From UHGV virus genome UHGV-0069399: a stretch of DNA of 49,013 nucleotides, one strand, 5' to 3'. Made by a program: the position numbers and the translations under genes. The notes below the pieces were generated by a model that was given only the letters and a program-made list of their open reading frames with translations, was not told the origin of the DNA and searched no databases. Shown here in pieces: positions 50-48,047 of this stretch. Within the stretch, counting starts at the first letter, position 1; every line of letters begins with the position of its first letter. This stretch comes from a virus.

Positions 50-721
50 ATGTGTGGACGTTTTTCACAGTCAATGACGCGTGAAGACTATCTAGCCCTT
101 CTCGCTGAAGAAGTCGAACGAGACATTCCATATGGCCCTGAACCGATCGGACGTTTCAACGTTGCGCCCGGAACCAAAGTTCTGCTACTGAGCGAACGTG
201 ATGAGAAACTCCATCTTGATCCAGTTATCTGGGGATACGCCCCCGGGTGGTGGGATAAACCACCACTAATTAATGCACGCTCTGAAACTGCGGCCACCAG
301 CAGAATGTTTAAACCACTCTGGCAGTATGGTCGTGCAATTTGCTTTGCTGATGGATGGTATGAATGGAAAAAGGAAGGTGACAAAAAGCAGCCCTACTTC
401 ATTCATCGAGCCGATGGCCAGCCGATATTCATGGCGGCGATCGGCAGAACACCATTCGAACGTGGAGATGAAGCAGAAGGATTCCTGATAGTGACGGCTG
501 CTGCAGACAAAGGGCTGGTAGATATTCACGACAGGCGGCCGCTGGTTCTGTCACCAGAAGCCGCTCGCGAATGGATGAGGCAGGACATTGGAGGGAAAGA
601 AGCTACGGTAATTGCGGCTGACGGTTCCGTGCCGGCTGATAAATTTTCATGGCATGCTGTAATGCGTGCCGTCGGGAATGTTAAGAATCAAGGACCAGAG
701 TTAATAGAAACTATGCGTTGA
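50..721 (+). CDS. yedK: SOS-response-associated peptidase (SRAP, YedK-like abasic-site processing protein)
   Basis: 223-aa ORF starting MCGRF, with Cys2 directly after the initiator Met (the SRAP nucleophile position); size and WGYAPGWW / PLINARSE motifs fit the family; GC typical of the host. Confidence 0.8.
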   Translation: MCGRFSQSMTREDYLALLAEEVERDIPYGPEPIGRFNVAPGTKVLLLSERDEKLHLDPVIWGYAPGWWDKPPLINARSETAATSRMFKPLWQYGRAICFADGWYEWKKEGDKKQPYFIHRADGQPIFMAAIGRTPFERGDEAEGFLIVTAAADKGLVDIHDRRPLVLSPEAAREWMRQDIGGKEATVIAADGSVPADKFSWHAVMRAVGNVKNQGPELIETMR

Positions 722-999
722 CGTACGAAGCGACAGAGAAAAACATCTGCTTTGAGCGAAAAGTGGCAGTTGAAGACAATCATGAACGATCTATGACTCG
801 ATATTTACTTAATTCACTGTTATTCAAAGGGTTAAGTAAAAAAATATTATCTGTCACCTCAGTGCAATGCAATCTAAGGTTTCAAAGAACCCCCCTTTGA
901 GTACACCGTAAGTTTTAAAATGTGAGGTAAGTTGATTTTACATATTTTCTAATGCATTATCATACGTCCCTTAAAATAAATCATATTACTGAGAAAAAA

Positions 1000-2022
1000 A
1001 TGTCCAACATTAATTTATTCGATGATGTAGTGCCTTTAGAAAAACAACATCCAATATATACAATGATGAAAGAAGAACGCTACAAACCGGAGAGAGATGT
1101 AATTAATCAATGGGCAAAAGGATTTCAAGACCGAGACAATAAATTTGCTAAAGAATTTCAAACAAGTTTTGAACCTTGCCTATGGGAATTATATCTTTTT
1201 GCCTATCTGAAAGAATTAGGCTTAAGGAGCGACTTTTCATACGACGCTCCTGACTTCGTCGTCAATGATCCAGATTTTTGCATTGAGGCAACTATTGCAC
1301 TTCCAGCACAAGGAGACCTTGGGGCGCATGGTTTCAGTAAGGAAGATATGCCGAGAGATTTTAATAAATTTAATTCTGAAGCATCTATTCGACTTAGTAA
1401 TAGCTTTATATCAAAGGTTAAAAAATTAAGATCGAGATATTCTCTACTTCCTCAATGTAAAGAAAAACCTTTTGTAATCGCCATAGCTTCATTCGACAGA
1501 CCTTTTGCACACTTTGCAGCAGCTAGGCCCATACTTGCAACATTATATGGCCTATACCATGATGAAGAAGCAACCATTGAATCAGGGTCAAAGAGTATAA
1601 TTTCTTATAACGTCGATGCTGCAGTAAAAAAAGAAAATGTTAATATAGACATGGGGTTATTCTGCACACCTGAATATTCGGATGTAAGTGCTGTGATTTA
1701 TAGTAGTTTAGCTACTTGGGGAAAAGTAAGAGCCCTTGCGGACAACCCTTCTGCTCTAACGATTTATACATCATTTACTCCAAAGGAAAACTCATTATTT
1801 CCTGAAGTTCATCAAGCCTTAAAAAGTGATTATGTAGAACATCTAGCGGATGGGTTATATATTTTACACAACCCATTTGCCAAGCATCCATTGCCTAAAG
1901 AGACACTAAGTCATCCAAGAATAGCGCAAGGTTATATTGAGCCAGATGGATACGTTAATTTTATAGCGCCAGATGATTTTCTTTTATTGCGTTTTTTACA
2001 ATCGTTAAATTTGAAAGAGTAG
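1000..2022 (+). CDS. hypothetical protein, AT-rich islet gene A (~340 aa)
   Basis: Long ORF in markedly AT-rich DNA. ATG at 1000 (MSNINLFDD) preferred over the ORF-track start at 952, which has no RBS. No family recognised by eye. Confidence 0.6.
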   Translation: MSNINLFDDVVPLEKQHPIYTMMKEERYKPERDVINQWAKGFQDRDNKFAKEFQTSFEPCLWELYLFAYLKELGLRSDFSYDAPDFVVNDPDFCIEATIALPAQGDLGAHGFSKEDMPRDFNKFNSEASIRLSNSFISKVKKLRSRYSLLPQCKEKPFVIAIASFDRPFAHFAAARPILATLYGLYHDEEATIESGSKSIISYNVDAAVKKENVNIDMGLFCTPEYSDVSAVIYSSLATWGKVRALADNPSALTIYTSFTPKENSLFPEVHQALKSDYVEHLADGLYILHNPFAKHPLPKETLSHPRIAQGYIEPDGYVNFIAPDDFLLLRFLQSLNLKE

Positions 2023-2256
2023 TAATTATGGTCACATCTAATTACTTTACATAGATACCCACTAGAAAGGGGACTTTTCTTAAAACTCAGCCGTCAAAGA
2101 TTTAGAGTGGTTATCTACTGGTATGCTTCCGAATCTGCCAGTGCGGCTGAGTGGATTTCTAGTACCCTCTAGAAGATTTAGTTGATTAAAACAGGTCATG
2201 TATCATCTTCAGAGTCAACATATCGCCAACTGTCTATCATTCCATTGAGGAAAAGT

Positions 2257-3030
2257 ATGTCATCAGAAAATTTTGTCACCTTCTGGCTCGCTAGAGCCGA
2301 TCTTCCATACTTTCTTGAACCTCATGAATTTTACGTTTCGGAGGCCAAGCGTAGACTTCTATCGCAGTTTGGCGATTTAGAACAAGAAGCAGAAAGGAGG
2401 GAACAACAGTATTTGGAAGCTACCTCAAAATATTTCGATCCTGATAACGATGATCCAATGGCTGCCTACGAGCAAGCCTACCACGTGGGAATTAATTATG
2501 TATGGTCGCTTCTGGAGATGCAAAATACCGTGTTGTTGGCATTAACGGCAGGAATGTACCACCAGTTTGATAAAAAACTAAGAGAACACACCATCAAAGA
2601 ACTAAGTAACTGGTGCAAAAGAGAATTAATTACTCCCATGATCTGGAATATAACTTTCCATCAGCTTATTGATTTACTCGAATGGATTGGCCTCAAAATC
2701 AATGGAACCGGATACGGAGAGAGGATCAAAGCCTGTAACTTGGTAGTAAACGTATACAAGCATGGGGACGGGCCTGCGCATCAAACACTATCATTCAATC
2801 ATCCTGAGTACTATCAACACCCTACCGATGTTCGAGGTACGCAGAACATACATGACCATGATGATTTACATGTATCAGAAGAGCAATTTGTAGAGTTTGC
2901 TGACGCAATAACTGAATTCTGGAAAGCAGTTCCAGAGAATTGCTATTACTCAGATCTCAAAGAAGAACCCAAATGGTTGAGTAAAGTCGTAACAAAATTC
3001 GATAAAAAACAGAAGGGAAATAGGGACTAA
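2257..3030 (+). CDS. hypothetical protein, AT-rich islet gene B (~257 aa)
   Basis: ORF in AT-rich DNA; ATG at 2257 (MSSENFVTF) is preceded by GAGGAAAA at RBS spacing. No family recognised. Confidence 0.6.
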   Translation: MSSENFVTFWLARADLPYFLEPHEFYVSEAKRRLLSQFGDLEQEAERREQQYLEATSKYFDPDNDDPMAAYEQAYHVGINYVWSLLEMQNTVLLALTAGMYHQFDKKLREHTIKELSNWCKRELITPMIWNITFHQLIDLLEWIGLKINGTGYGERIKACNLVVNVYKHGDGPAHQTLSFNHPEYYQHPTDVRGTQNIHDHDDLHVSEEQFVEFADAITEFWKAVPENCYYSDLKEEPKWLSKVVTKFDKKQKGNRD

Positions 3031-13267: not shown

Positions 13268-14881
13268 ATGAATATTGTGCATTATGCAGCCATTGGAGCT
13301 GTAGCTTTCGTAGTTGTTCTAACAATTTTGGTGATAAACATCATTAAATTAAAGTCAGCCAAGGCTGATGCAGCAGAAAAGGCGGCAAAACTTGAGCGTT
13401 ACGCGTCAATCACCAATGCTGAAACAGAAGCTGAACGAATCGTGAATGCAGCTAAGCAAACCGCAGAAGAGTTAATTATTGATTCGCAGAATAACCTTGA
13501 CGAGGCAAAAGCTGAAGCAGCCAACACTATTGCAGCCAGTGAAAAAGATGCAAGATCTATAACACAGCGTGCGGAGGATATTCTATCAGATGCGCGTTTA
13601 GCAGCTAAGCGAATGAACGCAGAGGCGCTGACCGCTGTAGAAACACAAAGAGTCAAGCGTGCAGAAATTGAAAAACAGATTGATGAATTGCGTAAATCCT
13701 ATCGTGAGAAAAAAATCACTTACGATGAGCTGACGGAAGCCCTGTCAATTTATAAAGATGATATGGAATTTGCTGACATGGGGTTCTATGCACCACACTT
13801 CGATTTTGATACCTCGGCTAGTTTTCAGGATGCGATCAAGGCATGTCGCGAACGGCAAAAAAATCTGCTACGTGACAAAACTGAATTTGGCGCAATACAT
13901 TGCCCTACTGAATGGACGGTTGGCGGCTCTAAAAGTGAAGGTCGGAAAATGACCACTCGCGGCATTCAGATGACAGCACGTGCATTCAATGGTGAGTGTG
14001 ATGCAGCTATTGCAAACTGCACATTTAAAAACGTTTATCAAATGGAGCAAAGAATTTATAAAGCCTTTGATGCCTTGAATAAGATGAATGAGGTTAACCA
14101 GATTTACATCAATCGTGCTTTTTTAGATTTGAAGCTGGATGAACTTCGACTTACACATGAATATCGTTTGAAAAAACAAGAAGAACGAGAAGAACAACGT
14201 GAAATCCGCGCTCAGATGGCTGAGGAGAAGCGAGCTCAAGCCGAAATTGATCGTGCACTTCGAGAGGCTGAAGATGAAGAACGCCGCGCCCAAAAAGCGT
14301 TGGATAAAGCCCGAAAAGAAATGGAATCGAAGCTAGCCCAAATGACAGCTGAGCAAGTTGAGAAACACCAAGCGAAGGTATCCGAATTAGAACATGCCTT
14401 AGAAGAGGCATTGTTGAAAGGCCAAAAAGCTCTTTCTATGGCTCAACAAACTAAACGCGGCCACGTGTACGTTATCTCTAATATTGGTTCGTTTGGTGAT
14501 GATGTTTTTAAAATAGGAATGACACGTCGACTTGACCCTCAAGATCGAGTGGATGAACTGGGTAGTGCATCAGTCCCATTCCTGTTCGATGTTCATGCAA
14601 TGATTTTCAGTGAAGATGCACCAACAATGGAAAACATGCTCCACCAGCGTTTCAATGAGCAACGCACTAACCTAGTTAATAAGCGTAAAGAGTTTTTCAA
14701 TGTAAAATTAAGCGATATCAAAGATGCTGTGTTTGAGATCGCAGGTAAAGATGTAGATTTTATCGAAACAGCAACTGCTCAGCATTATTATGAAACAAAG
14801 GCAATTCGTAAGCAGAAAGCGGATATCATTTCAGTTGTTCCTCAAGAGGAAAAACTACCTAAATTTGCGGACGCAATATAA
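13268..14881 (+). CDS. membrane-anchored coiled-coil protein with DUF4041-like core and C-terminal T5orf172 (MUG113, GIY-YIG-like) domain; inserted accessory gene
   Basis: 537 aa on the opposite strand to the flanking tail genes. N-terminal hydrophobic helix (AAIGAVAFVVVLTILVINII), long charged coiled-coil stretches, C-terminal GHVYVISNIGSFGDDVFKIGMTRRLDPQDRVDELG...FNVKLSDIKDAV matching the T5orf172 signature. Own AT-rich promoter region and terminator. Confidence 0.85.
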   Translation: MNIVHYAAIGAVAFVVVLTILVINIIKLKSAKADAAEKAAKLERYASITNAETEAERIVNAAKQTAEELIIDSQNNLDEAKAEAANTIAASEKDARSITQRAEDILSDARLAAKRMNAEALTAVETQRVKRAEIEKQIDELRKSYREKKITYDELTEALSIYKDDMEFADMGFYAPHFDFDTSASFQDAIKACRERQKNLLRDKTEFGAIHCPTEWTVGGSKSEGRKMTTRGIQMTARAFNGECDAAIANCTFKNVYQMEQRIYKAFDALNKMNEVNQIYINRAFLDLKLDELRLTHEYRLKKQEEREEQREIRAQMAEEKRAQAEIDRALREAEDEERRAQKALDKARKEMESKLAQMTAEQVEKHQAKVSELEHALEEALLKGQKALSMAQQTKRGHVYVISNIGSFGDDVFKIGMTRRLDPQDRVDELGSASVPFLFDVHAMIFSEDAPTMENMLHQRFNEQRTNLVNKRKEFFNVKLSDIKDAVFEIAGKDVDFIETATAQHYYETKAIRKQKADIISVVPQEEKLPKFADAI

Positions 14882-37529: not shown

Positions 37530-37763
37530 CTAATAAAACCAGTCGTCAGCGCTTTCCCAGGTATCCTGGAGGATTGATTCAATTTTCTTTTTATCGTCCT
37601 TGTCACCGCCAAAAACACTTAACCCATCCGACCCGGCACGGCGGATTGTGAGCCTGCAATTGTCATAGTGATCATTCAGGCGCTTAAGCAATTCTTTCTC
37701 CAGTGCAGGAACCGCGCCTTTAGGAAGTTCTTTCATACGATCAATGGTTAATTCAACTTTCAT
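37530..37763 (-). CDS. dinI: DinI-like protein (second copy)
   Basis: From ATG 37763, MKVELTIDRMKELPKGAVPALEKELLKRL...SDGLSVFGGDKDDKKKIESILQDTWESADDWFY aligns with E. coli DinI; GGAGG RBS; LexA box just upstream. Confidence 0.8.
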   Translation of the reverse strand: MKVELTIDRMKELPKGAVPALEKELLKRLNDHYDNCRLTIRRAGSDGLSVFGGDKDDKKKIESILQDTWESADDWFY

Positions 37764-37781
37764 AATGGCCTCCAATGCATA

Positions 37782-37801
37782 TACTGTGTTTTTATACAGT
37801 A
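37782..37801. promoter_or_regulatory. LexA box upstream of the second DinI-like gene
   Basis: TACTGTGTTTTTATACAGTA is a perfect CTGT-N8-ACAG palindrome matching the SOS-box consensus. Confidence 0.75.
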
Positions 37802-37861
37802 TACCTATGAGAGGAAATGATCAACGTTTTAAGAGCACAAATTGTTAATTTCCTGTCAGGA

Positions 37862-37891
37862 ATAAAAAAAGAAAACCCGCCGTAGCGGGTT
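37862..37891 (-). terminator. rho-independent terminator downstream of the 86-aa gene
   Basis: AACCCGC-cgta-GCGGGTT hairpin with a long T-run on the minus strand. Confidence 0.6.
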
Positions 37892-38070
37892 GAATTCGTG
37901 ATGGTTTATAAAGATGTAATTTCTTTCTACTGACAAATCTATGGCTACCCATTTACCCTCAAACGTGAATACAGCATACGCGCCGACATACTGATTATCT
38001 CTTTGTGGATCGGGATATGATCAACCTTCTGCCAGAACGTAAAACTTGATGCCGCTGACAAATAAACAGC

Positions 38071-38331
38071 TCATTGTTTCTTCTCGTTCTGGGCTGCCAT
38101 ATCCAGATAGCGCGGGTCGGATGCTCTCGGTAATGTCAGACTTTGCTCGCGATAGTAGCGCACACGCTCCATGAAGTATTCGCGGAGATGCTCTGGCTGA
38201 TCACGGGCTTCCTGTTCAGCGATAACCGGCATGTTCAGGCGCTCTTTGTCCGCTACTCCGGATGCTGCAAAGTCAACGTTAACCTTGTCCTGCTCTTCTT
38301 TCGGCTTGGCTGCAATGTTATGGTTGGACAT
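38071..38331 (-). CDS. hypothetical protein (86 aa)
   Basis: ORF with terminator downstream; acidic; no family recognised. Confidence 0.5.
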   Translation of the reverse strand: MSNHNIAAKPKEEQDKVNVDFAASGVADKERLNMPVIAEQEARDQPEHLREYFMERVRYYREQSLTLPRASDPRYLDMAAQNEKKQ

Positions 38332-38421
38332 GGTAATCTCACCGGTTAGCTGAGGGAACGATTCTCCTCAACTTGATCATTCAATCTGATTTGTAATCTT
38401 CCGAAATTTGAAATAACATCT

Positions 38422-38826
38422 TTACTTTAATTTATATATTAAACAATCCACAATATCCAAACCATTAACCATACTATTTGAAAGTCGAACTTTGCTATTT
38501 TCAATAGAGAATGCTCCTTTCATCATTTTATAAATAAAAGCAGACTCTCCTTTAGCTTCGATTGCTTCAAGTGGTATGGAATGGTATTTATTTGATCTAT
38601 TATCTCTATTGATTTGACTTATAAGGCTATAAACGAATGTAGGCCCTTTCTCCTCAAGATCACTTATTACCAAAATATATTTCCAAGAAAACATTTCCCC
38701 ATAAAAAAACCACATGGCAGCGGATAAAGCTACTCCTTTCTTCTCTAACTCTTTCATTAGAAATTGGCCAGAATTTTCCATAGAGGTCGTCATTGAGTGA
38801 CCTATTACCAGTGACTTCTTACCCAT
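38422..38826 (-). CDS. hypothetical protein (134 aa), downstream partner of the HEPN-like gene; possible degenerate minimal nucleotidyltransferase
   Basis: Very AT-rich; start overlaps the HEPN-like gene's 3' end by ~22 nt; contains a G-E-x11-S-D-L-E stretch loosely resembling the MNT G[SG]-x9-13-DxD motif. Confidence 0.6.
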   Translation of the reverse strand: MGKKSLVIGHSMTTSMENSGQFLMKELEKKGVALSAAMWFFYGEMFSWKYILVISDLEEKGPTFVYSLISQINRDNRSNKYHSIPLEAIEAKGESAFIYKMMKGAFSIENSKVRLSNSMVNGLDIVDCLIYKLK

Positions 38827-39227
38827 TGCAAAACTCCAGATTGATTATTCTCAGCTGCTTCGATGAGCTGCTCCGCCATAGCCCGACTGATAGTAGTTTC
38901 GTAGCGGAGTTGTTCACTCCAATCCTTCATAACAGTCCAAAATATTTCAAACTGCCCATCCTGGGCAGCTAATTGTCTATGTGATAGTTGTAGGCTCGCC
39001 ACCTGCATGAGCTTTGTTAGATCATGAACATGTGAGTCCATGGCTAACTTCTTGTCAGGAAATTGAAATGCCGTCACATTTTTTGCTATACATGCTTTAA
39101 GAGCGCACTCAACTGCGTATCCGCAGAGGTAGTATGCACCATGATATAATCCATTCTGTAACAGACATTTTGCTTCCGTTAACCTTATACCAGTTAAAAC
39201 TTCTAGGTCAGATTTATTCATTTGCAA
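38805..39227 (-). CDS. HEPN-like domain protein (140 aa)
   Basis: GAYYLCGYAVECALKACIAK ... HDLTKL ... RYETT pattern resembles HEPN-superfamily helices; AT-rich; first gene of an overlapping pair. Confidence 0.6.
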   Translation of the reverse strand: MQMNKSDLEVLTGIRLTEAKCLLQNGLYHGAYYLCGYAVECALKACIAKNVTAFQFPDKKLAMDSHVHDLTKLMQVASLQLSHRQLAAQDGQFEIFWTVMKDWSEQLRYETTISRAMAEQLIEAAENNQSGVLQWVRSHW

Positions 39228-39339
39228 ATATTCTAATTTTCTTTCATAGGCACATGGTACTCATTGAGTGTAATTCTTTCCAACAAATTATCAGATATAT
39301 ACGATAAAAGGTCGCTTGATCAATTTTCGGAGCTAGGAG

Positions 39340-39792
39340 CTAAATGATGTGAAGGCGCGGCTCCCCGTTTTTCGGCTCAGGCCACTGACGCTGCTTATTC
39401 ACCGCCAACTTTTCTACCATCGCCTGGTTAATCTGCTCGTCACTGATACCGGCACGACGTTGCGCATCCCATAACAGGAATTGCATGTCAGCCCATTCGC
39501 TAAGGTCGCCTGGTTCAGCAGCAGCCTCGAGTGCTTCTTTGGAAAGGTGCTTCAGCGGACCAACTGGACCGACATCGCCGAAAGTAGCCAGTGACCACGC
39601 TGCATGTTCACGGCGTACTTGTTCGCGGGCCATCGACTCCAGAACCCCATTAAACACCTTCACAGCATCAGCCATTGCGTAGCCGAGATTGCCGCCGTCG
39701 CTTTGTGCTGCTGCTTTGCTGAGTATTTCTCTTATCTGGTGCAGGCGATTGAGTGATACAGGACCGTTCGCCGGGTGGTTGTTAGTGGTCAT
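39340..39792 (-). CDS. MazG-like/DUF550-type nucleotide pyrophosphohydrolase (putative)
   Basis: Start chosen at MTTNNHP; HLSKEALEAAAEPGDLSEWADMQFLLWDAQRRAGIS resembles prophage dATP/dGTP pyrophosphohydrolase-like proteins. Moderate confidence. Confidence 0.5.
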   Translation of the reverse strand: MTTNNHPANGPVSLNRLHQIREILSKAAAQSDGGNLGYAMADAVKVFNGVLESMAREQVRREHAAWSLATFGDVGPVGPLKHLSKEALEAAAEPGDLSEWADMQFLLWDAQRRAGISDEQINQAMVEKLAVNKQRQWPEPKNGEPRLHII

Positions 39793-40100
39793 ACTGATGC
39801 TCTCCCGTAAAATGCCAGAACCCGCTTCATCGCCGGACTTGTACGGCATACTGAAGTAACCATGTTTTTTCTCATGTTCGATTTGATCTGCTTGATATTC
39901 AGTTCCCCGCCTAGTTGCAGCGAATAGACCGGGTGATGTGGCTCCCCAGCGCGAATAACTACTGCCCTACGTACCAGGTGAAGCAGCAGGTTGTGTGCTT
40001 TCTTGCAGTCGCATCCCAGCAGGTTCTGAACCTGACGCGGGGTTATGGTCTGGTTAACCCGAAGGAAATCGACAATTGCCCACAGTGATTTGCTTGCCAT
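39789..40100 (-). CDS. hypothetical small protein (103 aa), probably DNA-binding
   Basis: Basic small ORF between the DnaC-like and MazG-like genes, same operon. Confidence 0.45.
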   Translation of the reverse strand: MASKSLWAIVDFLRVNQTITPRQVQNLLGCDCKKAHNLLLHLVRRAVVIRAGEPHHPVYSLQLGGELNIKQIKSNMRKNMVTSVCRTSPAMKRVLAFYGRASV

Positions 40101-41866: not shown

Positions 41867-42406
41867 TCATACAACCCCCAGCATCAACTGCACCATCTCC
41901 ATCAGCGGACCGGTTAAGCCAGGGTCAACGCGGTACATCTCCACGATCCCCTCGCTCAGCTCTTTCAGCTTCTGATGACGCGGCGCATCCATTGCGACAG
42001 CTATCTTCGCTTCGCTGGTTTCCTTCTCCATACGTGCCAGGCGAGCCATGATGTTGTCTTCTGGCAGCAGGCGGTTGCGGTATTCAATCGGCAGAACTGC
42101 GAGGATTGCGGGAGTCAGCTGGCGAACGTTCTCGCGGTACCGCTCGCTGTTGAAATGGTTATCGAGGAAGCGGAAAAGCTTCTGGCGCTTTCGGCAGAGA
42201 TCATCAGGGAAAGTGATGTCGTCACCACCCTGCGCCTGGTACTCTTCGATGATCAGAGCAGTAACTACGTCCTGACCATCAGCACCAGCCCAGGAGCGAA
42301 CCGCATCACGAATATCTTCGTGGCTCGGCCCCCTGCGTGCTTGAGCGCGATTTATCATTACCCCTTGAGTAATATCGCTATCATTCTGATAAGTAAGTGT
42401 CTGCAT
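41867..42406 (-). CDS. YdaT-like protein (cII-position regulator)
   Basis: 179 aa between the cro-like and O-like genes; LIIEEYQAQGG and LTPAILAVLPIEYRNRLL resemble Rac YdaT as recalled. Confidence 0.55.
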   Translation of the reverse strand: MQTLTYQNDSDITQGVMINRAQARRGPSHEDIRDAVRSWAGADGQDVVTALIIEEYQAQGGDDITFPDDLCRKRQKLFRFLDNHFNSERYRENVRQLTPAILAVLPIEYRNRLLPEDNIMARLARMEKETSEAKIAVAMDAPRHQKLKELSEGIVEMYRVDPGLTGPLMEMVQLMLGVV

Positions 42407-44061: not shown

Positions 44062-46992
44062 ATGGAATTTCCATATGTAGTTAAAGCCACACAAAAGTCG
44101 GGAAAGCCTGATGCTTTTGTCTGGTTCACTGCAAAAACTGAGGCTCGCGCCAACCTGATGCTGGACGTTGCTCTGGAAGACGCTGGCATCGAAACCGGCC
44201 GTGGTAAGGACTACGCCAAGCCTATCCGCACTGACTTCCCAGTTGTTGATGACCTTCCGGAAGAAGGTGAAGTTGATTTCACCTGGTGTGATCGTTACGA
44301 ACTGCAGGACGACGGGCGCATCTGGCTGCCAAAGGCCGCTGGCGACGTTGTCACCACTATCCCTGCCGATGTAAAAAATACCGATGAAGTAGCGACATCT
44401 GACGAGAATGTATCGTTAGAAAACCGCACTCCAGCAGTCCGTTTTGCCTTCCATCTGATGAGCGATAAATACCAGACTCACGTCACTAAAGAGCAGCAGC
44501 TGGCTGCCAGCGAAATGTCACTGGACGAAAGCAATACCTATCTCCAGAACTTGCTGCAGGTTAAAAATGATGTTCCTGAAATTGGCGAACTCAGTCTGAA
44601 TGCTGAGTGGAAAATGATTCAGGCGATTAAAGACATCTTCGAACAGGGTGAAGAGCATGAACCTGAAGTGATCGCTGCTTTCATGTCTGACTGGGTGAAC
44701 GCAGAAGCAGGTGATCGCAATCAACTGGTTGAAGACTGGCGCAGTGGAAAGTTTCCTCTGCTCAAAACTGAAACCACCAGCGTTGGTGATGAAGTCGGTC
44801 CCGAAGAACAATCTCAGCAGCCAGAGCAGCCGAACCTGATCGTCGTAGCCACCCTGCCATTCCGTCAGCGCGTACTGGCTCAGTTCATCGGTAATGGTGA
44901 ATATCTCTATCACGTCGATGCCGCGCAGAAAAAAGAGATTGTCCGCCTTGAGATGGACACTGATGACACGTACATCCAGAACCTGCTGCTGGCTGCTGAG
45001 AATGTGGAGGCATTCAAAAAAGCCATTGAGCACGATATTCATAAAGTCGTGAATGCCGTTAAGAAAGTCTTCCCTGTCGACGGTAAGAAACCGGAGCTGG
45101 CAACAGTTATCCAGTTCCTGACGGTGTGGTTCAAAACTGAATACATCGATCGCGGCCTGCTGGTCAAGGAATGGCAGAAAGGCAATCGTGTAACAACCAT
45201 TAATCGCACACCTTCAGGTGCGAACGCCGGCGGCGGCATTGTCTCTGACCGAAAATTCCCGCAAACCATTCTCGGTCTGGAGCATGAGATTGCTCTGGCG
45301 TTACGTGCCCGTGACCGCGAATTTGATATTTACAACGTCCCTCTGGATATAGAACTACAGGCAAACTCCATCATGAATAAGATGGACGATCCCGAATGGC
45401 TGGCGACTCGAGAGAGATTCGTTTCAATTCCTGGTGGCCTGGACTACTCACGTGCCTGCATCATCGCAACAGTAAAAACCACACCAGAGGGGCTTTATGC
45501 TGATCCTGTAAAACACCAAGAATATTTGAATAGAGTACTTACGGAAACCGACCACGCCAACCCAGATCCATTGCTCGTTGATATAGCCTGCGGTCGTTCG
45601 TCTATGCCTGTACCTATGAAACAGGAAAAAGTAACGGCCGAAGAGGTAAACAAAATTCTTGCAGCTTCCCGCGGAGAATATGTCGAGGGGATTAGTGACC
45701 CTACAGACCCGAAATGGATCACAGAAGACCTCGCATTAACCGCCCAACAAATAGATGACCGTTCACCACTTAATAAGGAAACCACCAGCAATGTGCAGAT
45801 GGAAGAAACTGTCAGTGATGAAGAGCAGTCAGGCGAAAGCAGTCTGGAAACTGGTGAAGAGTCACATACCGGCCAGCAAGCCGATGTAAACCAGAATGCG
45901 GATTCTGTCGCCCAAAATAGCGATTTTGTAAACCAAACCGAACCGGTTGCGGCACAAATCAAGCCAGAATCTCATTCTGACGAACCGGCTGTTGTGTACC
46001 CTGCTTACTTTGAGCCAGGCCGCTATGAAGGATTGTCGAACGAGGTTTATCACGCAGCGAACGGTATCAGCTCAACCCAGGTGAAAGACGCACGTGTCAG
46101 CCTGATGTTCTATCACGGCCGTCACGTGACCAAGACTATCCGTCGCGAAAGCAGCGAGGCGCTGACGTTAGGTAGCCTGGCGCACACCCTGGCCCTGGAG
46201 CCCGAAAAGCTCCACGAAGAGTTTGCGGTATTCCCAGGTATTCCGGCTGAGGCGTTTACCACCACCGACTCCATGAAGGCGTTCATTCGAGAATTTAACG
46301 CGGATAAGCCAAAGGCCGAGCAACTGAAGCTCACCGGTAAGAAAGAAGAACTTCAGGCGGCGATACGCGCGGTCAGCCCGGAGGCCATTTTCGCTGATGA
46401 ATTTGAGCAGCAATGGCGTGATAGCGTTGATGGGAAAACCATCCTGTCCAGAGAACAACTGACGCTGGCCACGGCAATTCAGCAAGCCCTACTGAATCAT
46501 GAATCAGCCGGGAAACTGCTGCGCCATCCTTCCCGTTCAGTGGAAACCAGTTATTTCGGGATGGACGACGAAACCGGTCTGGAAGTCCGTGTGCGCCCTG
46601 ACCTTGAGGTTGAAATCAACGGCGTTCGTATCGGTGTTGACCTGAAGACGATCAGCATGGGACGCGTTAAGCAAGACGGTTTGCGCGCCAAACTGCACCG
46701 GGAAATCATCGACCGCGACTACCACCTCAGCGCTGGCATGTATTGCTCCGTTGCCGACTTTGATCAGTTCTTCTGGATCTTCGTCAACAAAGACGAGGGC
46801 TACCACTGGGTGGCGGTAATTGAGGCATCGGAAGATTTGCTCGACCTCGGGCTGCTGGAGTATCAGCGCACCATGCGTGCACTCGCAAATGCGTATGACA
46901 CCGATTGCTGGTCTGCACCGATAACCGAAGACTACACCGACGAACTGAACGACTTCGACCTGCGCTGCCTTGAAGCGCTGCGTCTGGCTTAA
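44062..46992 (+). CDS. recE: RecE-like exonuclease VIII (C-terminal PD-(D/E)xK exonuclease) with long acidic N-terminal region
   Basis: 976 aa; acidic low-complexity middle; C-terminal ~300 aa are nuclease-like; position directly upstream of the RecT-like gene as in Rac. Confidence 0.7.
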   Translation: MEFPYVVKATQKSGKPDAFVWFTAKTEARANLMLDVALEDAGIETGRGKDYAKPIRTDFPVVDDLPEEGEVDFTWCDRYELQDDGRIWLPKAAGDVVTTIPADVKNTDEVATSDENVSLENRTPAVRFAFHLMSDKYQTHVTKEQQLAASEMSLDESNTYLQNLLQVKNDVPEIGELSLNAEWKMIQAIKDIFEQGEEHEPEVIAAFMSDWVNAEAGDRNQLVEDWRSGKFPLLKTETTSVGDEVGPEEQSQQPEQPNLIVVATLPFRQRVLAQFIGNGEYLYHVDAAQKKEIVRLEMDTDDTYIQNLLLAAENVEAFKKAIEHDIHKVVNAVKKVFPVDGKKPELATVIQFLTVWFKTEYIDRGLLVKEWQKGNRVTTINRTPSGANAGGGIVSDRKFPQTILGLEHEIALALRARDREFDIYNVPLDIELQANSIMNKMDDPEWLATRERFVSIPGGLDYSRACIIATVKTTPEGLYADPVKHQEYLNRVLTETDHANPDPLLVDIACGRSSMPVPMKQEKVTAEEVNKILAASRGEYVEGISDPTDPKWITEDLALTAQQIDDRSPLNKETTSNVQMEETVSDEEQSGESSLETGEESHTGQQADVNQNADSVAQNSDFVNQTEPVAAQIKPESHSDEPAVVYPAYFEPGRYEGLSNEVYHAANGISSTQVKDARVSLMFYHGRHVTKTIRRESSEALTLGSLAHTLALEPEKLHEEFAVFPGIPAEAFTTTDSMKAFIREFNADKPKAEQLKLTGKKEELQAAIRAVSPEAIFADEFEQQWRDSVDGKTILSREQLTLATAIQQALLNHESAGKLLRHPSRSVETSYFGMDDETGLEVRVRPDLEVEINGVRIGVDLKTISMGRVKQDGLRAKLHREIIDRDYHLSAGMYCSVADFDQFFWIFVNKDEGYHWVAVIEASEDLLDLGLLEYQRTMRALANAYDTDCWSAPITEDYTDELNDFDLRCLEALRLA

Positions 46993-47006
46993 TGGAGGAT
47001 TTGACC

Positions 47007-48047
47007 ATGCAAAATACCAACATCATTACGACCGAGCAGGCACCAAACACCATTTCCGCCAGCAACGCTGTGTTCAACGTGCAGGCACTCGGCCAGCTTA
47101 CCTCTTTTGCTGAATTGATGGCGCAGTCTGTCGTCACCGTCCCCAAACACCTTGCGGGGAAACCCGCCGACTGTATGGCTATCGTCATGCAGGCTATGCA
47201 GTGGGGAATGAACCCATATGCAGTTGCCCAGAAAACACACCTGGTCAACGGTGTGCTGGGTTACGAAGCGCAGCTGGTTAACGCAGTGATCTCCAGTTCC
47301 AGCGCCATTATTGGCCGCTTCCATTACGAGTACGGCGGTGACTGGGAGAAGATCGCCGGGAAAAAAGACGGTCGTGATGAATTAGGTCTGTTTATCCGGG
47401 TTGGCGCCGTACTGCGCGGAGAAGAAGAAATTACCTGGGGCGAGCCAATCTACCTGGCAGATATCACCATACGTAACTCGCCACTGTGGAAAACAGCGCC
47501 GAAGCAGCAGATCGCTTATCTGGCAGTGAAGTACTGGGCTCGCCTGTACTGCCCAGAAGTCATCCTCGGCGTCTACAGTCCAGATGAAGTTGAGCCACGC
47601 ACTGAGAAAGAGATTAACCCGGCGCCGCAACGCGTTAGCCTGGCCGATATTTCAGGTGACACCGTCACAACCACGCAAAGCGCACAGGAATCGTCGGTAA
47701 ATATCGACTCTCTTGCCGATGATTTCCGCGAACGAATCGATGCCGCTCAGGATGTTGATAGTGCAAAAGCACTGCGCGCTGATATCGAAAGCGCGAAGGC
47801 CACACTCGGATCAGCCCTGTTCACCGAGCTGAAGAATAAGGCAGTGAAACGCTATTACCTGGTTGATTCACGTAACAAGGTTGAGGCCGCGATCAACTCC
47901 CTGCCGTCTCCGGACGAACCGGATGCAGCTGAACGGTTTGGGGAAGTTGAGCGAGTTCTTGCAACTGCGAAACGTCATCTGGGCGACGAGCTGCACGATC
48001 AGTTCAGCATCACCCTGGCGGATATGAAACCGGAATACGTTGGCTAA
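47007..48047 (+). CDS. recT: RecT-like single-strand annealing recombinase
   Basis: GGAGGA RBS before ATG 47007; coupled to recE (TAATG overlap at the ORF-track start 46992); C-terminal coiled-coil extension. Family call is positional plus general resemblance. Confidence 0.65.
   Translation: MQNTNIITTEQAPNTISASNAVFNVQALGQLTSFAELMAQSVVTVPKHLAGKPADCMAIVMQAMQWGMNPYAVAQKTHLVNGVLGYEAQLVNAVISSSSAIIGRFHYEYGGDWEKIAGKKDGRDELGLFIRVGAVLRGEEEITWGEPIYLADITIRNSPLWKTAPKQQIAYLAVKYWARLYCPEVILGVYSPDEVEPRTEKEINPAPQRVSLADISGDTVTTTQSAQESSVNIDSLADDFRERIDAAQDVDSAKALRADIESAKATLGSALFTELKNKAVKRYYLVDSRNKVEAAINSLPSPDEPDAAERFGEVERVLATAKRHLGDELHDQFSITLADMKPEYVG

What the first reader, a model, noticed from the sequence alone, without database searches (positions are those of the whole stretch)
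38340..39330. AT-rich overlapping two-gene pair: HEPN-like protein plus unknown partner
Inside the nin-like region, a ~1-kb patch much more AT-rich than its surroundings holds two genes whose ends overlap by ~22 nt. The upstream 140-aa protein has HEPN-like helices (GAYYLCGYAVECALKA...HDLTKL...RYE). The downstream 134-aa protein is unrecognised but carries a G-E-x11-S-D-L-E stretch that could be a degenerate minimal-nucleotidyltransferase motif. The gene order (HEPN first) is the reverse of the common MNT-HEPN arrangement. A foreign-composition, overlapping pair with a putative RNase-fold component is a strong candidate toxin-antitoxin or abortive-infection module, possibly a new variant.
Basis: partly seen in the sequence, partly recalled or inferred. 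Interest (0 to 1): 0.75.

Follow-up and report, generated by a model that had tools for sequence, protein, structure and literature searches.

The report
HEPN plus pseudo-nucleotidyltransferase gene pair
A small AT-rich insert in this prophage carries an uncharacterised, translationally coupled two-gene cassette, a HEPN (RNase-fold) protein plus a faster-evolving partner, that recurs from archaea to E. coli O26/O103 prophages and looks like a toxin-antitoxin or phage-defence module, though no function has been tested.

Summary
On the minus strand, a 138-aa HEPN gene (38805-39221) and a 134-aa partner gene (38422-38826) overlap by 22 nt. They sit in a 37% GC patch of a 50% GC lambdoid prophage, between the replication genes and the nin/Q genes.

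The upstream protein is a genuine HEPN of the PF05168 type. It lacks the Rx4-6H motif but has an invariant H66 and R106-Y107.

The partner belongs to a family with no Pfam, NCBIfam or PADLOC model. Its confident AlphaFold model resembles minimal nucleotidyltransferases (MNTs) best, but only weakly.

The pair is not a nin-region function. The same cassette, with the same 22-nt overlap and an internal GGAG ribosome-binding site, occurs in about 120 distinct loci across bacterial phyla and archaea, mostly outside phages. It is also in 190 of 5,426 complete E. coli genomes.

Three patterns point to a HEPN toxin or effector held by a non-catalytic, MNT-like antitoxin:
- The partner evolves faster than the HEPN.
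- The partner has the stronger ribosome-binding site.
- Decayed copies lose the HEPN about five times more often than the partner.

Function is inferred, not shown. I call it a new variant of a known kind, with moderate-to-good interest.

The parts
38805..39221 (-). HEPN gene, 138 aa from the ATG at 39221. The ORF list extends it to a TTG at 39227 (140 aa). Invariant residues: R13, E38, K42, F54-P55, H66, W95, W101, R106-Y107, G129. No Rx4-6H motif.
   Evidence: PF05168, 27.8 bits against cutoff 22; phrog_5737, 190 bits; conservation; pLDDT 96.3; top PDB folds are all HEPN.
38422..38826 (-). Partner gene, 134 aa, from a family with no model in any library searched. The alpha/beta model runs H14-29, E34-42, E47-54, H62-75, E89-92, H97-102, E113-120, E123-133. 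Invariant residues: V7, G20, L27, W39, G61, Y66, R114, G122, D127.
   Evidence: no Pfam, PADLOC or NCBIfam hit; phrog_5760, 187 bits; family size; conservation; pLDDT 89.4; weak nucleotidyltransferase-fold matches.
38805..38826 (-). The 22-nt overlap ATGGGTAAGAAGTCACTGGTAA. The partner ATG is built from the last base of Q132 plus the W133 codon of HEPN. HEPN W138 plus its stop (TGG TAA) doubles as partner L6-V7 (CTG GTA).
   Evidence: The same 22-nt register holds in 60 of the 62 first-round loci and in 32 distinct junction sequences.
38834..38837 (-). GGAG Shine-Dalgarno for the partner, 7 nt before its ATG. It is encoded by the invariant G129-V130 codons of HEPN.
   Evidence: GG invariant, R-R-T next, in 32 of 32 junctions; duplex with the anti-SD: -5.9 kcal/mol against +0.2 for the HEPN start.
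39222..39339 (-). AT-rich spacer, 118 nt, between the dATP/dGTP pyrophosphohydrolase stop and the HEPN ATG. No consensus sigma-70 promoter and no Shine-Dalgarno for HEPN.
38332..38421 (-). AT-rich 90-nt spacer between the partner stop and the HolE-like theta gene. No terminator found.

Best explanation
This is a self-contained, horizontally mobile two-gene cassette of the toxin-antitoxin / abortive-infection type. It has been inserted as an accessory gene block (a 'moron') between the replication and nin genes of a lambdoid prophage.

**Proposed parts (all inferred)**
- The 138-aa HEPN protein is the harmful effector, most likely an RNase. It would use the non-canonical H66 plus R106(-Y107) site that Anantharaman et al. 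2013 proposed for AF0298-type PF05168 HEPNs, because it lacks Rx4-6H.
- The 134-aa partner is a non-catalytic protein, probably derived from the minimal-nucleotidyltransferase fold. It would hold the HEPN inactive by direct binding. It would not act by AMPylation, as MntA does in type VII systems.

**Proposed expression (signals shown in sequence; behaviour inferred)**
- The two genes are translated as a coupled unit. Ribosomes finishing HEPN pass a GGAG embedded in its invariant Gly-Val codons and start the partner 22 nt before the HEPN stop.
- HEPN itself has almost no ribosome-binding site. The design therefore favours partner at or above HEPN levels.

**Proposed trigger (inferred)**
- Anything that lowers or displaces the partner would free the HEPN and arrest the cell. 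Candidates are host shut-off, a phage protein, or loss of the cassette.

**Shown here:** the anatomy, the conservation, the folds, the decay asymmetry and the translation signals.
**Inferred:** RNase activity, toxicity, neutralisation by binding, and any phage phenotype.
For: 1. **HEPN identity.**

2. **Non-canonical site.** H66, R106 and Y107 are invariant while no Rx4-6H is present. This matches the alternative-site description in PMC3710099.

3. **Conserved architecture.**
- The same HEPN-then-partner order with a 22-nt overlap appears in Betaproteobacteria, Acinetobacter, Klebsiella prophages, an archaeon, Bacteroidota and Acidobacteria.
- It appears in 43 of 44 IMG/VR loci.
- A 33-nt junction signature retrieves 91 stretches from 100,044 species genomes, of which 5 are chance matches.

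4. **No third gene.** Neighbours are heterogeneous, and a few are defence genes: JetA, PtuA, PsyrA, ShosA, AriA, TIR.

5. **Co-divergence with a faster partner.** Spearman 0.86. The partner is the less conserved protein in 93% of 561 pairs.

6. **Decay asymmetry.** Among 122 distinct complete loci: 106 have both genes intact, 11 have a broken HEPN with an intact partner, 2 show the reverse, and 3 have both broken. The two genes are of near-equal length, so 11 against 2 gives a two-sided binomial p of about 0.02 (my arithmetic). L134 is a further likely case.

7. **Ribosome-binding sites.** The partner site is stronger than the HEPN site in 29 of 30 protein-selected loci (median -5.9 against -0.3 kcal/mol; Wilcoxon p 3e-6).

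8. **Partner fold.** The nearest solved folds are MNTs of HEPN-MNT pairs, but no catalytic motif is present. In the window's clade D88 is A and E126 is V.

9. **Purifying selection** acts on both genes.

10. **Defence company.** The same prophage carries homologues of two validated defence systems, PD-T7-5 and PD-Lambda-1.

11. **Precedent.** HepS on Gifsy-1 is a HEPN defence at the equivalent prophage position (PMC13043305).
Against: - No experiment and no complex model exist. Toxicity, RNase activity and binding are all inferred.
- Two genomes keep an intact HEPN with a broken partner: L014 has a GAA to TAA change at partner codon 20, and L079 has a stop after 53 codons. HEPN alone is therefore not always lethal, or it is silent there.
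- The decay asymmetry rests on 13 informative loci. Many are metagenome-assembled genomes, where assembly errors occur.
- No promoter was detected upstream, in the window or in two relatives. The cassette may be expressed only from the phage early-right operon, which would not suit a defence acting in lysogens.
- Association with defence genes is occasional and was not quantified against a baseline.
- PF05168-type HEPNs without Rx4-6H have no demonstrated RNase activity that I could find.
Confidence: 0.55

Rival explanations
1. Sensor-effector abortive-infection pair without autoimmunity. The HEPN is inactive by default, as in HepS or Tha. The fast-evolving partner is the phage sensor or activator, not an antitoxin.
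For: - Two natural partner-null loci have an intact HEPN.
- The partner evolves faster, as expected of a component in an arms race.
- HepS, a prophage HEPN at the equivalent position, is non-toxic until a tail-tip protein triggers it (PMC13043305).
- Two other defence homologues sit on the same prophage.
Against: - Decay is asymmetric: HEPN is lost with the partner kept 11 times, against 2 for the reverse. A harmless, default-off effector does not predict this.
- The translation design favours an excess of partner over HEPN.
- Many copies sit among housekeeping genes rather than in defence islands.
Confidence: 0.2
2. A two-subunit nucleotidyltransferase enzyme. The partner is the catalytic MNT-fold subunit and the HEPN is its substrate- or nucleotide-binding subunit, as in kanamycin nucleotidyltransferase or HI0073/HI0074. 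It would modify a small molecule, an RNA or a protein. This includes a type VII-like reading in which the partner nucleotidylates HEPN Y107.
For: - The top structural matches of the partner are MNTs.
- PF05168 HEPNs are the classical MNT partners (PMC3710099).
- G61 is invariant, and D88 (69% D), E126 (76% E) and D127 (invariant) could form an unconventional acidic site outside the gammaproteobacterial clade.
- Y107 is invariant next to R106.
Against: - There is no hG[GS] or [DE]h[DE]h motif.
- None of 121 members matches any Pfam model of the fold at E<=1.
- hhalign to a canonical MNT gives 0.4%.
- The window's own clade has A88 and V126, yet it is under strong purifying selection.
- E126 and D127 are adjacent on a beta-strand, so they should point to opposite faces (inference).
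Confidence: 0.1
3. A phage-benefit function expressed only during lytic growth from the early-right operon. Examples would be a regulated host-shutoff RNase or a counter-defence factor, rather than a host-protective or addictive module.
For: - No promoter was detected upstream of the pair in the window or in relatives.
- In L009 the HEPN start overlaps the preceding phage ORF.
- The neighbours are phage-benefit genes: HolE-like theta, DinI and a dATP/dGTP pyrophosphohydrolase.
Against: - Most copies are not in phages at all. They lie between housekeeping genes in bacteria and archaea.
- Only 1 of 50,697 sequenced phage records and 44 of 2.9 million IMG/VR contigs carry it.
- The consensus promoter scan is insensitive, so failing to find a promoter is weak evidence.
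Confidence: 0.1
4. A conserved nin-region housekeeping function, or chance ORFs in AT-rich filler DNA.
For: Position inside the nin-like region only.
Against: - The cassette is found in more than 100 non-phage loci across phyla.
- The flanks vary even among lambdoid prophages.
- dN/dS is 0.06-0.10.
- Both fold models are confident.
- The HEPN search returned 2,619 hits at E<=0.001. The partner search returned 260 representatives at 50% clustering.
Confidence: 0.02

Closest known systems
HEPN-MNT toxin-antitoxin pairs: type VII HepT/MntA (Shewanella SO_3166/SO_3165; Aphanizomenon HEPN-MNT, PDB 7ae2/5yep), and the classical PF05168 HEPN + PF01909 MNT pairs of archaea and thermophiles
   Same: - Two small adjacent genes, one of them a HEPN protein.
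- The partner's nearest solved folds are the MNT subunits of exactly these pairs.
- Wide, patchy distribution typical of mobile toxin-antitoxin modules.
   Different: - The gene order is reversed, with HEPN first.
- The HEPN is PF05168-type without Rx4-6H, not DUF86/HepT.
- The partner has no detectable sequence similarity to any MNT model and lacks the GS...DxD catalytic motif, so AMPylation-type neutralisation is unlikely.
- A fixed 22-nt overlap carries an internal Shine-Dalgarno.
RnlA-RnlB / LsoA-LsoB (HEPN-containing RNase toxin followed by its antitoxin; anti-T4 abortive infection)
   Same: - Toxin-first order.
- HEPN-fold effector.
- The antitoxin is inferred to act by direct binding.
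- Carried on mobile elements. (From my own knowledge and PMC3710099.)
   Different: - No sequence relationship was detected for either protein.
- RnlA is a large multidomain protein with a canonical HEPN motif.
- The partner here has an MNT-like alpha/beta fold.
HepS (Gifsy-1) and Tha (S. aureus prophages): prophage-encoded HEPN abortive-infection proteins
   Same: - A HEPN effector carried as an accessory gene of a temperate siphovirus.
- HepS lies between the replication genes and the late regulatory region, like this pair (PMC13043305; PMC11087260).
   Different: - Both are solo proteins with a canonical Rx4-6H and no partner gene.
- They are triggered by tail proteins.
- The present HEPN always travels with its partner and is mostly non-phage.
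PADLOC candidate PDC-M28 (untested; predicted by 'guilt-by-embedding' in BREX, DISARM and type I RM loci)
   Same: PDC-M28A is also a 138-position HEPN profile. It is the only PADLOC model that the HEPN hits (35.5 bits, E 2.9e-9).
   Different: - PDC-M28 is a three-family cassette (bioRxiv 10.1101/2024.01.29.577857, supplementary file 8).
- The match is weak compared with the roughly 200 bits that members score within their own family.
- The partner hits no PADLOC model at all.
Non-catalytic nucleotidyltransferase-fold binding proteins (e.g. RsfS/iojap)
   Different: No sequence relationship, an unrelated biological role, and a weak structural match.

Membership tests
HEPN superfamily, PF05168 ('HEPN-T') branch | Match to the Pfam HEPN model above its gathering score | tested here: met
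   27.8 bits against a cutoff of 22, residues 16-127. Many family members carry precomputed PF05168.
HEPN superfamily, PF05168 ('HEPN-T') branch | All-alpha HEPN fold resembling solved HEPN structures | tested here: met
   AlphaFold pLDDT 96.3. The nine best Foldseek PDB hits are all HEPN proteins (1wol, 4nqf x2, 2q00 x2, 1ufb, 2hsb, 1o3u, sacsin 3o10), with probability 0.75-1.0 and TM 0.43-0.59. E-values are only 0.07-1.6.
HEPN superfamily, PF05168 ('HEPN-T') branch | Rx4-6H catalytic motif | tested here: not met
   R106 is followed by Y-E-T-T-I-S-R, and no H is conserved downstream. H66, N-terminal to R106, is invariant. This is the alternative arrangement described for AF0298-type HEPN-T (PMC3710099).
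Minimal nucleotidyltransferase (MNT; PF01909 and related) | Sequence or profile match to a nucleotidyltransferase family | tested here: not met
   None of 121 family members hits any such Pfam model at E<=1. A profile search of PDB sequences finds no nucleotidyltransferase. hhalign against a canonical MNT from L100 gives 0.4% probability, though the template was a single sequence.
Minimal nucleotidyltransferase (MNT; PF01909 and related) | Pol-beta-like nucleotidyltransferase fold | tested here: inconclusive
Minimal nucleotidyltransferase (MNT; PF01909 and related) | hG[GS] ... [DE]h[DE]h catalytic motif plus a third carboxylate | tested here: not met
The only invariant Gly before a helix is G61-P62. 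D88 is D in 84 of 121 members and A in the window. E126 is E in 92 of 121 and V in the window. Only D127 is invariant.
[quoted passage not shown] | DUF86-type HepT with Rx4HxY, a catalytically active MntA, and mntA-hepT gene order | tested here: not met
   No DUF86 hit, no MntA motif, and the order is HEPN first.
Toxin-antitoxin module (generic, proteic) | Two small co-directional, overlapping or coupled genes moving together as an autonomous cassette | tested here: met
   The 22-nt overlap with an internal Shine-Dalgarno is conserved across phyla. Neighbours vary and there is no third gene.
Toxin-antitoxin module (generic, proteic) | Putative toxin more conserved than the antitoxin; the antitoxin is rarely lost alone | tested here: met
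   The partner is less conserved in 93% of pairs. HEPN-only loss occurs 11 times against 2 for partner-only loss.
Toxin-antitoxin module (generic, proteic) | Growth inhibition by the toxin and rescue by the antitoxin | not testable with these tools
   Needs expression experiments.
PADLOC PDC-M28 candidate system | All three component families present | tested here: not met
   Only a weak hit to PDC-M28A (35.5 bits). There is no hit to any other PADLOC model for the partner or for three distant partners.
Solo HEPN abortive-infection proteins (HepS, Tha) | A single self-sufficient HEPN gene with no conserved partner | tested here: not met
   The partner gene is intact next to an intact HEPN in 106 of 122 distinct complete loci.

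The most novel reading that the evidence does not exclude
This is a previously unrecognised, ancient family of HEPN-based conflict modules. A minimal nucleotidyltransferase has been converted into a non-catalytic protein inhibitor or sensor of a HEPN RNase that uses an alternative H...R-Y active site. The two genes are locked together by a 22-nt overlap conserved from methanogen-related archaea to enterobacterial prophages. In prophages, including those of E. coli O26/O103 STEC and Klebsiella, the module would act as an abortive-infection defence triggered when a competing phage removes or binds the partner.
Probability: 0.3. Interest if true: 0.75.

Novelty: new variant of a known kind. Interest (0 to 1): 0.6.

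Why it matters
**If the model is right:**
- It adds a new branch to the HEPN toxin-antitoxin and defence repertoire, with an enzyme-derived but non-catalytic antitoxin. That would show how type VII (modifying) systems can turn into binding-type systems.
- It gives a first handle on whether PF05168 HEPNs without Rx4-6H are real nucleases. That question has been open since the 2013 survey of the superfamily.

**Practical points:**
- The cassette is present in 3.5% of complete E. coli genomes. The records listed are O26, O103 and other bovine and human isolates. It also occurs in Klebsiella and Citrobacter prophages.
- In those records it is annotated only as 'HEPN domain-containing protein | hypothetical protein'.
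- The partner family has no Pfam, NCBIfam or PADLOC model, so current defence and toxin-antitoxin finders miss it.
- The invariant 33-nt junction signature is a cheap and specific detector for the family.

Tried and rejected
I rejected G-E...S-D-L-E as a degenerate MNT motif. The residues are not conserved. In a canonical MNT the DxD opens strand beta-2, whereas here D56-E58 follow a strand.

2. **An alternative mapping.** G61-P62 as the GS motif and D88 as the first Asp gives at most two partially conserved positions, and D88 is absent from the window's clade.

3. **Sequence-level links of the partner.** None found with Pfam, NCBIfam, PADLOC, a PDB profile search or hhalign.

4. **PDC-M28 membership.** Rejected, because it is a three-gene cassette and only a weak A-subunit hit exists.

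5. **AFDB50 fold search.** The library was unavailable.

6. **Promoter and terminator scans.** Nothing above shuffled expectation in the window or in two relatives.

7. **Flanking inverted repeat.** The 12-nt repeat (38400-38411 / 39320-39331) is at chance level for a region of this size and composition (my estimate: about 1-2 expected).

8. **RNA components.** Rfam and tRNA scans found nothing.

9. **Literature.** Searches for PDC-M28, the RefSeq accessions, the PHROG ids, and HEPN with lambdoid prophages found no description of this pair.

10. **Coverage-based intactness.** My first tally, based on HMM coverage, over-called broken partners in divergent members. One script had a regex off by one. 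An ORF-based tally replaced both.

11. **A complex model.** This could not be built, because the structure tool takes single chains only and returns no coordinates.
Full report
**1.

The two genes lie on the minus strand.
- The upstream ORF is listed as 38805..39227, 140 aa from TTG. All 118 aligned relatives start two codons later at M-N, so the gene is 38805..39221, 138 aa.
- The downstream ORF is 38422..38826, 134 aa.
- They overlap by exactly 22 nt.

The finding interval has 36.7% GC. The window mean is 50.3% (sd 5.4 points for windows of this size). The partner gene alone is 32.8%.

The setting is the early-right arm of a lambdoid prophage. In order: cI-like repressor, YdaT, replication O, DnaC-like P, dATP/dGTP pyrophosphohydrolase, the pair, HolE-like theta subunit, DinI, DUF1367, NinG, HNH, Q, holin, lysozyme.

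Both genes are under strong purifying selection against close relatives. dN/dS is 0.06-0.07 for the HEPN gene and 0.08-0.10 for the partner, at dS 0.24-0.41.

**2. The upstream protein is a HEPN of the PF05168 branch**

- It passes Pfam's threshold, 27.8 bits against 22.
- It folds with pLDDT 96.3.
- Its nine best Foldseek matches in the PDB are all HEPN proteins: ST0689, 4nqf, 2q00, TT1696, AF0298, TM0613 and sacsin.
- The family is highly conserved, with 45-54% identity between phyla. Invariant residues are R13, E38, K42, F54-P55, H66, W95, W101, R106-Y107 and G129.
- There is no Rx4-6H motif. A conserved Arg with a second conserved His N-terminal to it is what Anantharaman et al. described for AF0298-type HEPN-T proteins. 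They suggested it might be an alternative RNase site (PMC3710099). Activity of such a site is a hypothesis, not a fact.

**3. The partner is a new family with, at best, a remnant nucleotidyltransferase fold**

- It has no Pfam, NCBIfam or PADLOC match. Its only match is an unannotated PHROG.
- A word-indexed search found only 11 enterobacterial relatives. An exhaustive phmmer search found 260 representatives at 50% clustering. A profile of eight partners taken from next to distant HEPN genes found 279.
- With 121 sequences the AlphaFold model is confident (pLDDT 89.4) except for residues 1-8. Its order of elements is alpha, beta-hairpin, alpha, beta, alpha, beta-hairpin.
- Foldseek's best hit is the MNT chain of a HEPN-MNT complex, 7ae2_B, at E 0.057 and TM 0.35.
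- These scores are weak. KH-like folds (RimP, RbfA, BolA, uS3) are close behind. I treat the nucleotidyltransferase ancestry as likely, not established.

No catalytic set is present:
- None of the 121 members hits a nucleotidyltransferase Pfam model.
- hhalign to a canonical MNT found in L100 gives 0.4%.
- The family's conserved polar residues are G61-P62, Y66, R114, N121-G122, D127 and Y131-R132. D88 and E126 are conserved only outside the gammaproteobacterial clade. The window has A88 and V126.

**4. The pair is an ancient, autonomous cassette, not a nin function**

- I looked up where seven distant HEPN homologues are encoded. Every one had a 126-154-aa partner gene starting exactly 22 nt before the HEPN stop. 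The hosts were a betaproteobacterium, Acinetobacter, Klebsiella prophages, Methanomethylovorans, Catalinimonas, Thermoanaerobaculia and an unnamed assembled genome (L018).
- Of 44 IMG/VR loci, one was cut off by the end of its locus and 42 showed the same 22-nt register.

The junction is a piece of dual coding:
- The invariant Gly129-Val130 codons spell GGAG, 7 nt before the partner ATG.
- That ATG is made from the W133 codon.
- W138 plus the stop codon doubles as partner Leu6-Val7.

The junction also works as a search key. A 33-nt degenerate signature of it, with about 2 chance matches expected by my estimate, retrieved 91 stretches from 100,044 species-representative genomes. Five are chance hits, such as ribosomal protein S14 and a ferredoxin. 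The rest encode the pair or a divergent sister branch.

The hosts span Acidobacteria, Nitrospirae, Ignavibacteria and Chlorobi, Planctomycetes, Bacillaceae, alpha-, gamma- and deltaproteobacteria, cyanobacteria, Chloroflexi, Chlamydiae, Armatimonadetes, and ANME-2 and Methanosarcinales archaea.

Neighbouring genes are heterogeneous and mostly housekeeping. No third gene recurs. Defence genes appear occasionally: JetA, PtuA, PsyrA, ShosA, AriA and a TIR effector.

Prevalence by collection:
- Isolated phages: 1 of 50,697 records.
- Plasmids: 1 of 72,556 records.
- Complete E. coli genomes: a 58%-identical version is in 190 of 5,426, always once, on the chromosome. In the example I read, it sits in a lambdoid prophage between an antirepressor-like gene and ybcN/ninE. 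It is annotated 'HEPN domain-containing protein | hypothetical protein'.

**5. Which protein does what**

Four independent patterns point the same way.

(a) The two proteins co-diverge (Spearman 0.86), and the partner is the less conserved in 93% of 561 comparisons.

(b) Decayed copies are asymmetric. Among 122 distinct, complete loci:

| State | Loci |
|---|---|
| Both genes intact | 106 |
| HEPN broken, partner intact | 11 |
| HEPN intact, partner broken | 2 |
| Both broken | 3 |

The genes are of near-equal length and the search key straddles both. The 11:2 split is therefore unlikely under neutral decay (binomial p about 0.02, my arithmetic). It is what a toxin and its antidote would show.

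(c) The partner's ribosome-binding site is much stronger than the HEPN's. Medians are -5.9 against -0.3 kcal/mol, the partner is stronger in 29 of 30 loci chosen by protein similarity, and Wilcoxon p is 3e-6. The window's HEPN start has none.

(d) The fixed overlap implies translational coupling and hence a stoichiometric complex.

Two counter-examples exist, so HEPN alone is not universally lethal. L014 has a nonsense codon at partner position 20 with an identical, intact HEPN. L079 is the other.

**6. Most likely mechanism**

The HEPN is a latent RNase-type effector. The partner is a non-catalytic, MNT-derived protein that keeps it off by binding. Depletion or displacement of the partner releases growth arrest.

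Neutralisation by AMPylation, as in type VII HepT/MntA, is unlikely because the catalytic residues are missing.

When the cassette is expressed in this prophage is unknown. No promoter stands out upstream, so it may ride on the early-right transcript.

The same prophage carries homologues of two experimentally validated defence systems, PD-T7-5 and PD-Lambda-1. The solo HEPN defence HepS occupies the equivalent slot in Gifsy-1 (PMC13043305). A role in phage-phage competition is therefore plausible but unproven.

**7. Comparison with known systems**

- It works most like a HEPN-MNT or RnlAB-type toxin-antitoxin or abortive-infection pair.
- It is not a member of type VII HepT/MntA. The HEPN branch is wrong, there is no MntA motif, and the order is reversed.
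- It is not the untested three-gene PADLOC candidate PDC-M28. Only a 35-bit hit to its HEPN component exists.
- It is not one of the solo HEPN defences.
- I found no paper describing this pair.

**8. Verdict**

This is a real, conserved, unannotated two-gene module. I rate it a new variant of a known kind.

Interest is moderate to good. Many candidate toxin-antitoxin and defence pairs await testing, but this one has several points in its favour:
- unusually deep conservation;
- a distinctive overlapping-gene architecture that doubles as a search key;
- natural-genetics evidence for which protein is the toxin and which the antidote;
- a probable pseudo-enzyme antitoxin;
- presence in clinically relevant prophages.

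Noticed in passing
window 952-2022 (+): A 356-aa ORF in the most AT-rich part of the window (about 650-1400, GC 0.35). It is a strong homologue of the validated defence protein PD-T7-5 (339.9 bits) and also hits PD-T7-1. It has no Pfam domain. The neighbouring ORF 2182-3030 (+), 282 aa, has no hit at all.
   Followed up: partly
window 13268-14881 (+): A 537-aa ORF on the opposite strand inside the tail-gene block. It is a full-length homologue of the validated defence protein PD-Lambda-1 (666.9 bits; Pfam DUF4041 plus T5orf172/MUG113). It is a second defence gene block in the same prophage.
   Followed up: partly
window 37530-38331 and 39340-39849 (-): The pair is flanked by three host-mimicking accessory genes: a HolE-like DNA polymerase III theta subunit (38071-38331), DinI (37530-37775) and a dATP/dGTP pyrophosphohydrolase (39340-39849). 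A YdaT-domain protein sits at the cII position (41867-42406).
   Followed up: no
L095, L120, L132, L151; also L131, L134, L135: A divergent sister branch, mostly Deltaproteobacteria MAGs. It keeps the same 33-nt junction signature, but the downstream protein is 148-164 aa and my partner HMM does not recognise it. It still ends in an ...NG-hh-E/D... strand. In L131 and L134 only the last 22-40 codons of the HEPN frame remain open while the partner ORF is intact. L135 shows the same HEPN remnant, with a 112-codon partner reading frame.
   Followed up: partly
L014:2893-3357 vs L015:1180-1644: The Catalinimonas alkaloidigena isolate genome carries a GAA to TAA nonsense change at partner codon 20, with an unchanged HEPN. 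A near-identical metagenome contig has the intact partner. This is a natural partner-null strain that could be tested directly.
   Followed up: yes
L155 (E. coli E2865, NZ_AP018808.1 622372-623168): The E. coli version of the pair (WP_001038620.1 and WP_000520500.1) is more than 99% identical in 190 of 5,426 complete E. coli genomes, always a single chromosomal copy. The records listed are O26, O103 and other bovine and human isolates. In E2865 it lies in a DLP12-like prophage next to ybcN-ninE-rusA-quuD.
   Followed up: partly
window 38400-38411 and 39320-39331: A 12-nt inverted repeat (TCCGAAATTTGA / TCAATTTTCGGA, 11 of 12 complementary) brackets the cassette almost exactly. By my estimate this is at chance level for an AT-rich 1.2-kb region, so I did not treat it as an insertion scar.
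   Followed up: partly
L016:515-3489: In a Thermoanaerobaculia contig the pair sits between a Hypoth_Ymh-domain gene and a BrnT toxin gene, that is, in a small cluster of toxin-antitoxin-like genes.
   Followed up: no
window 44062-48047 (+) and 50-721 (+): A RecE-like exonuclease VIII fused to a PDDEXK domain (976 aa), followed by RecT. An SRAP-family gene lies at the other end of the window. No tRNA gene and no Rfam match anywhere in the window.
   Followed up: no
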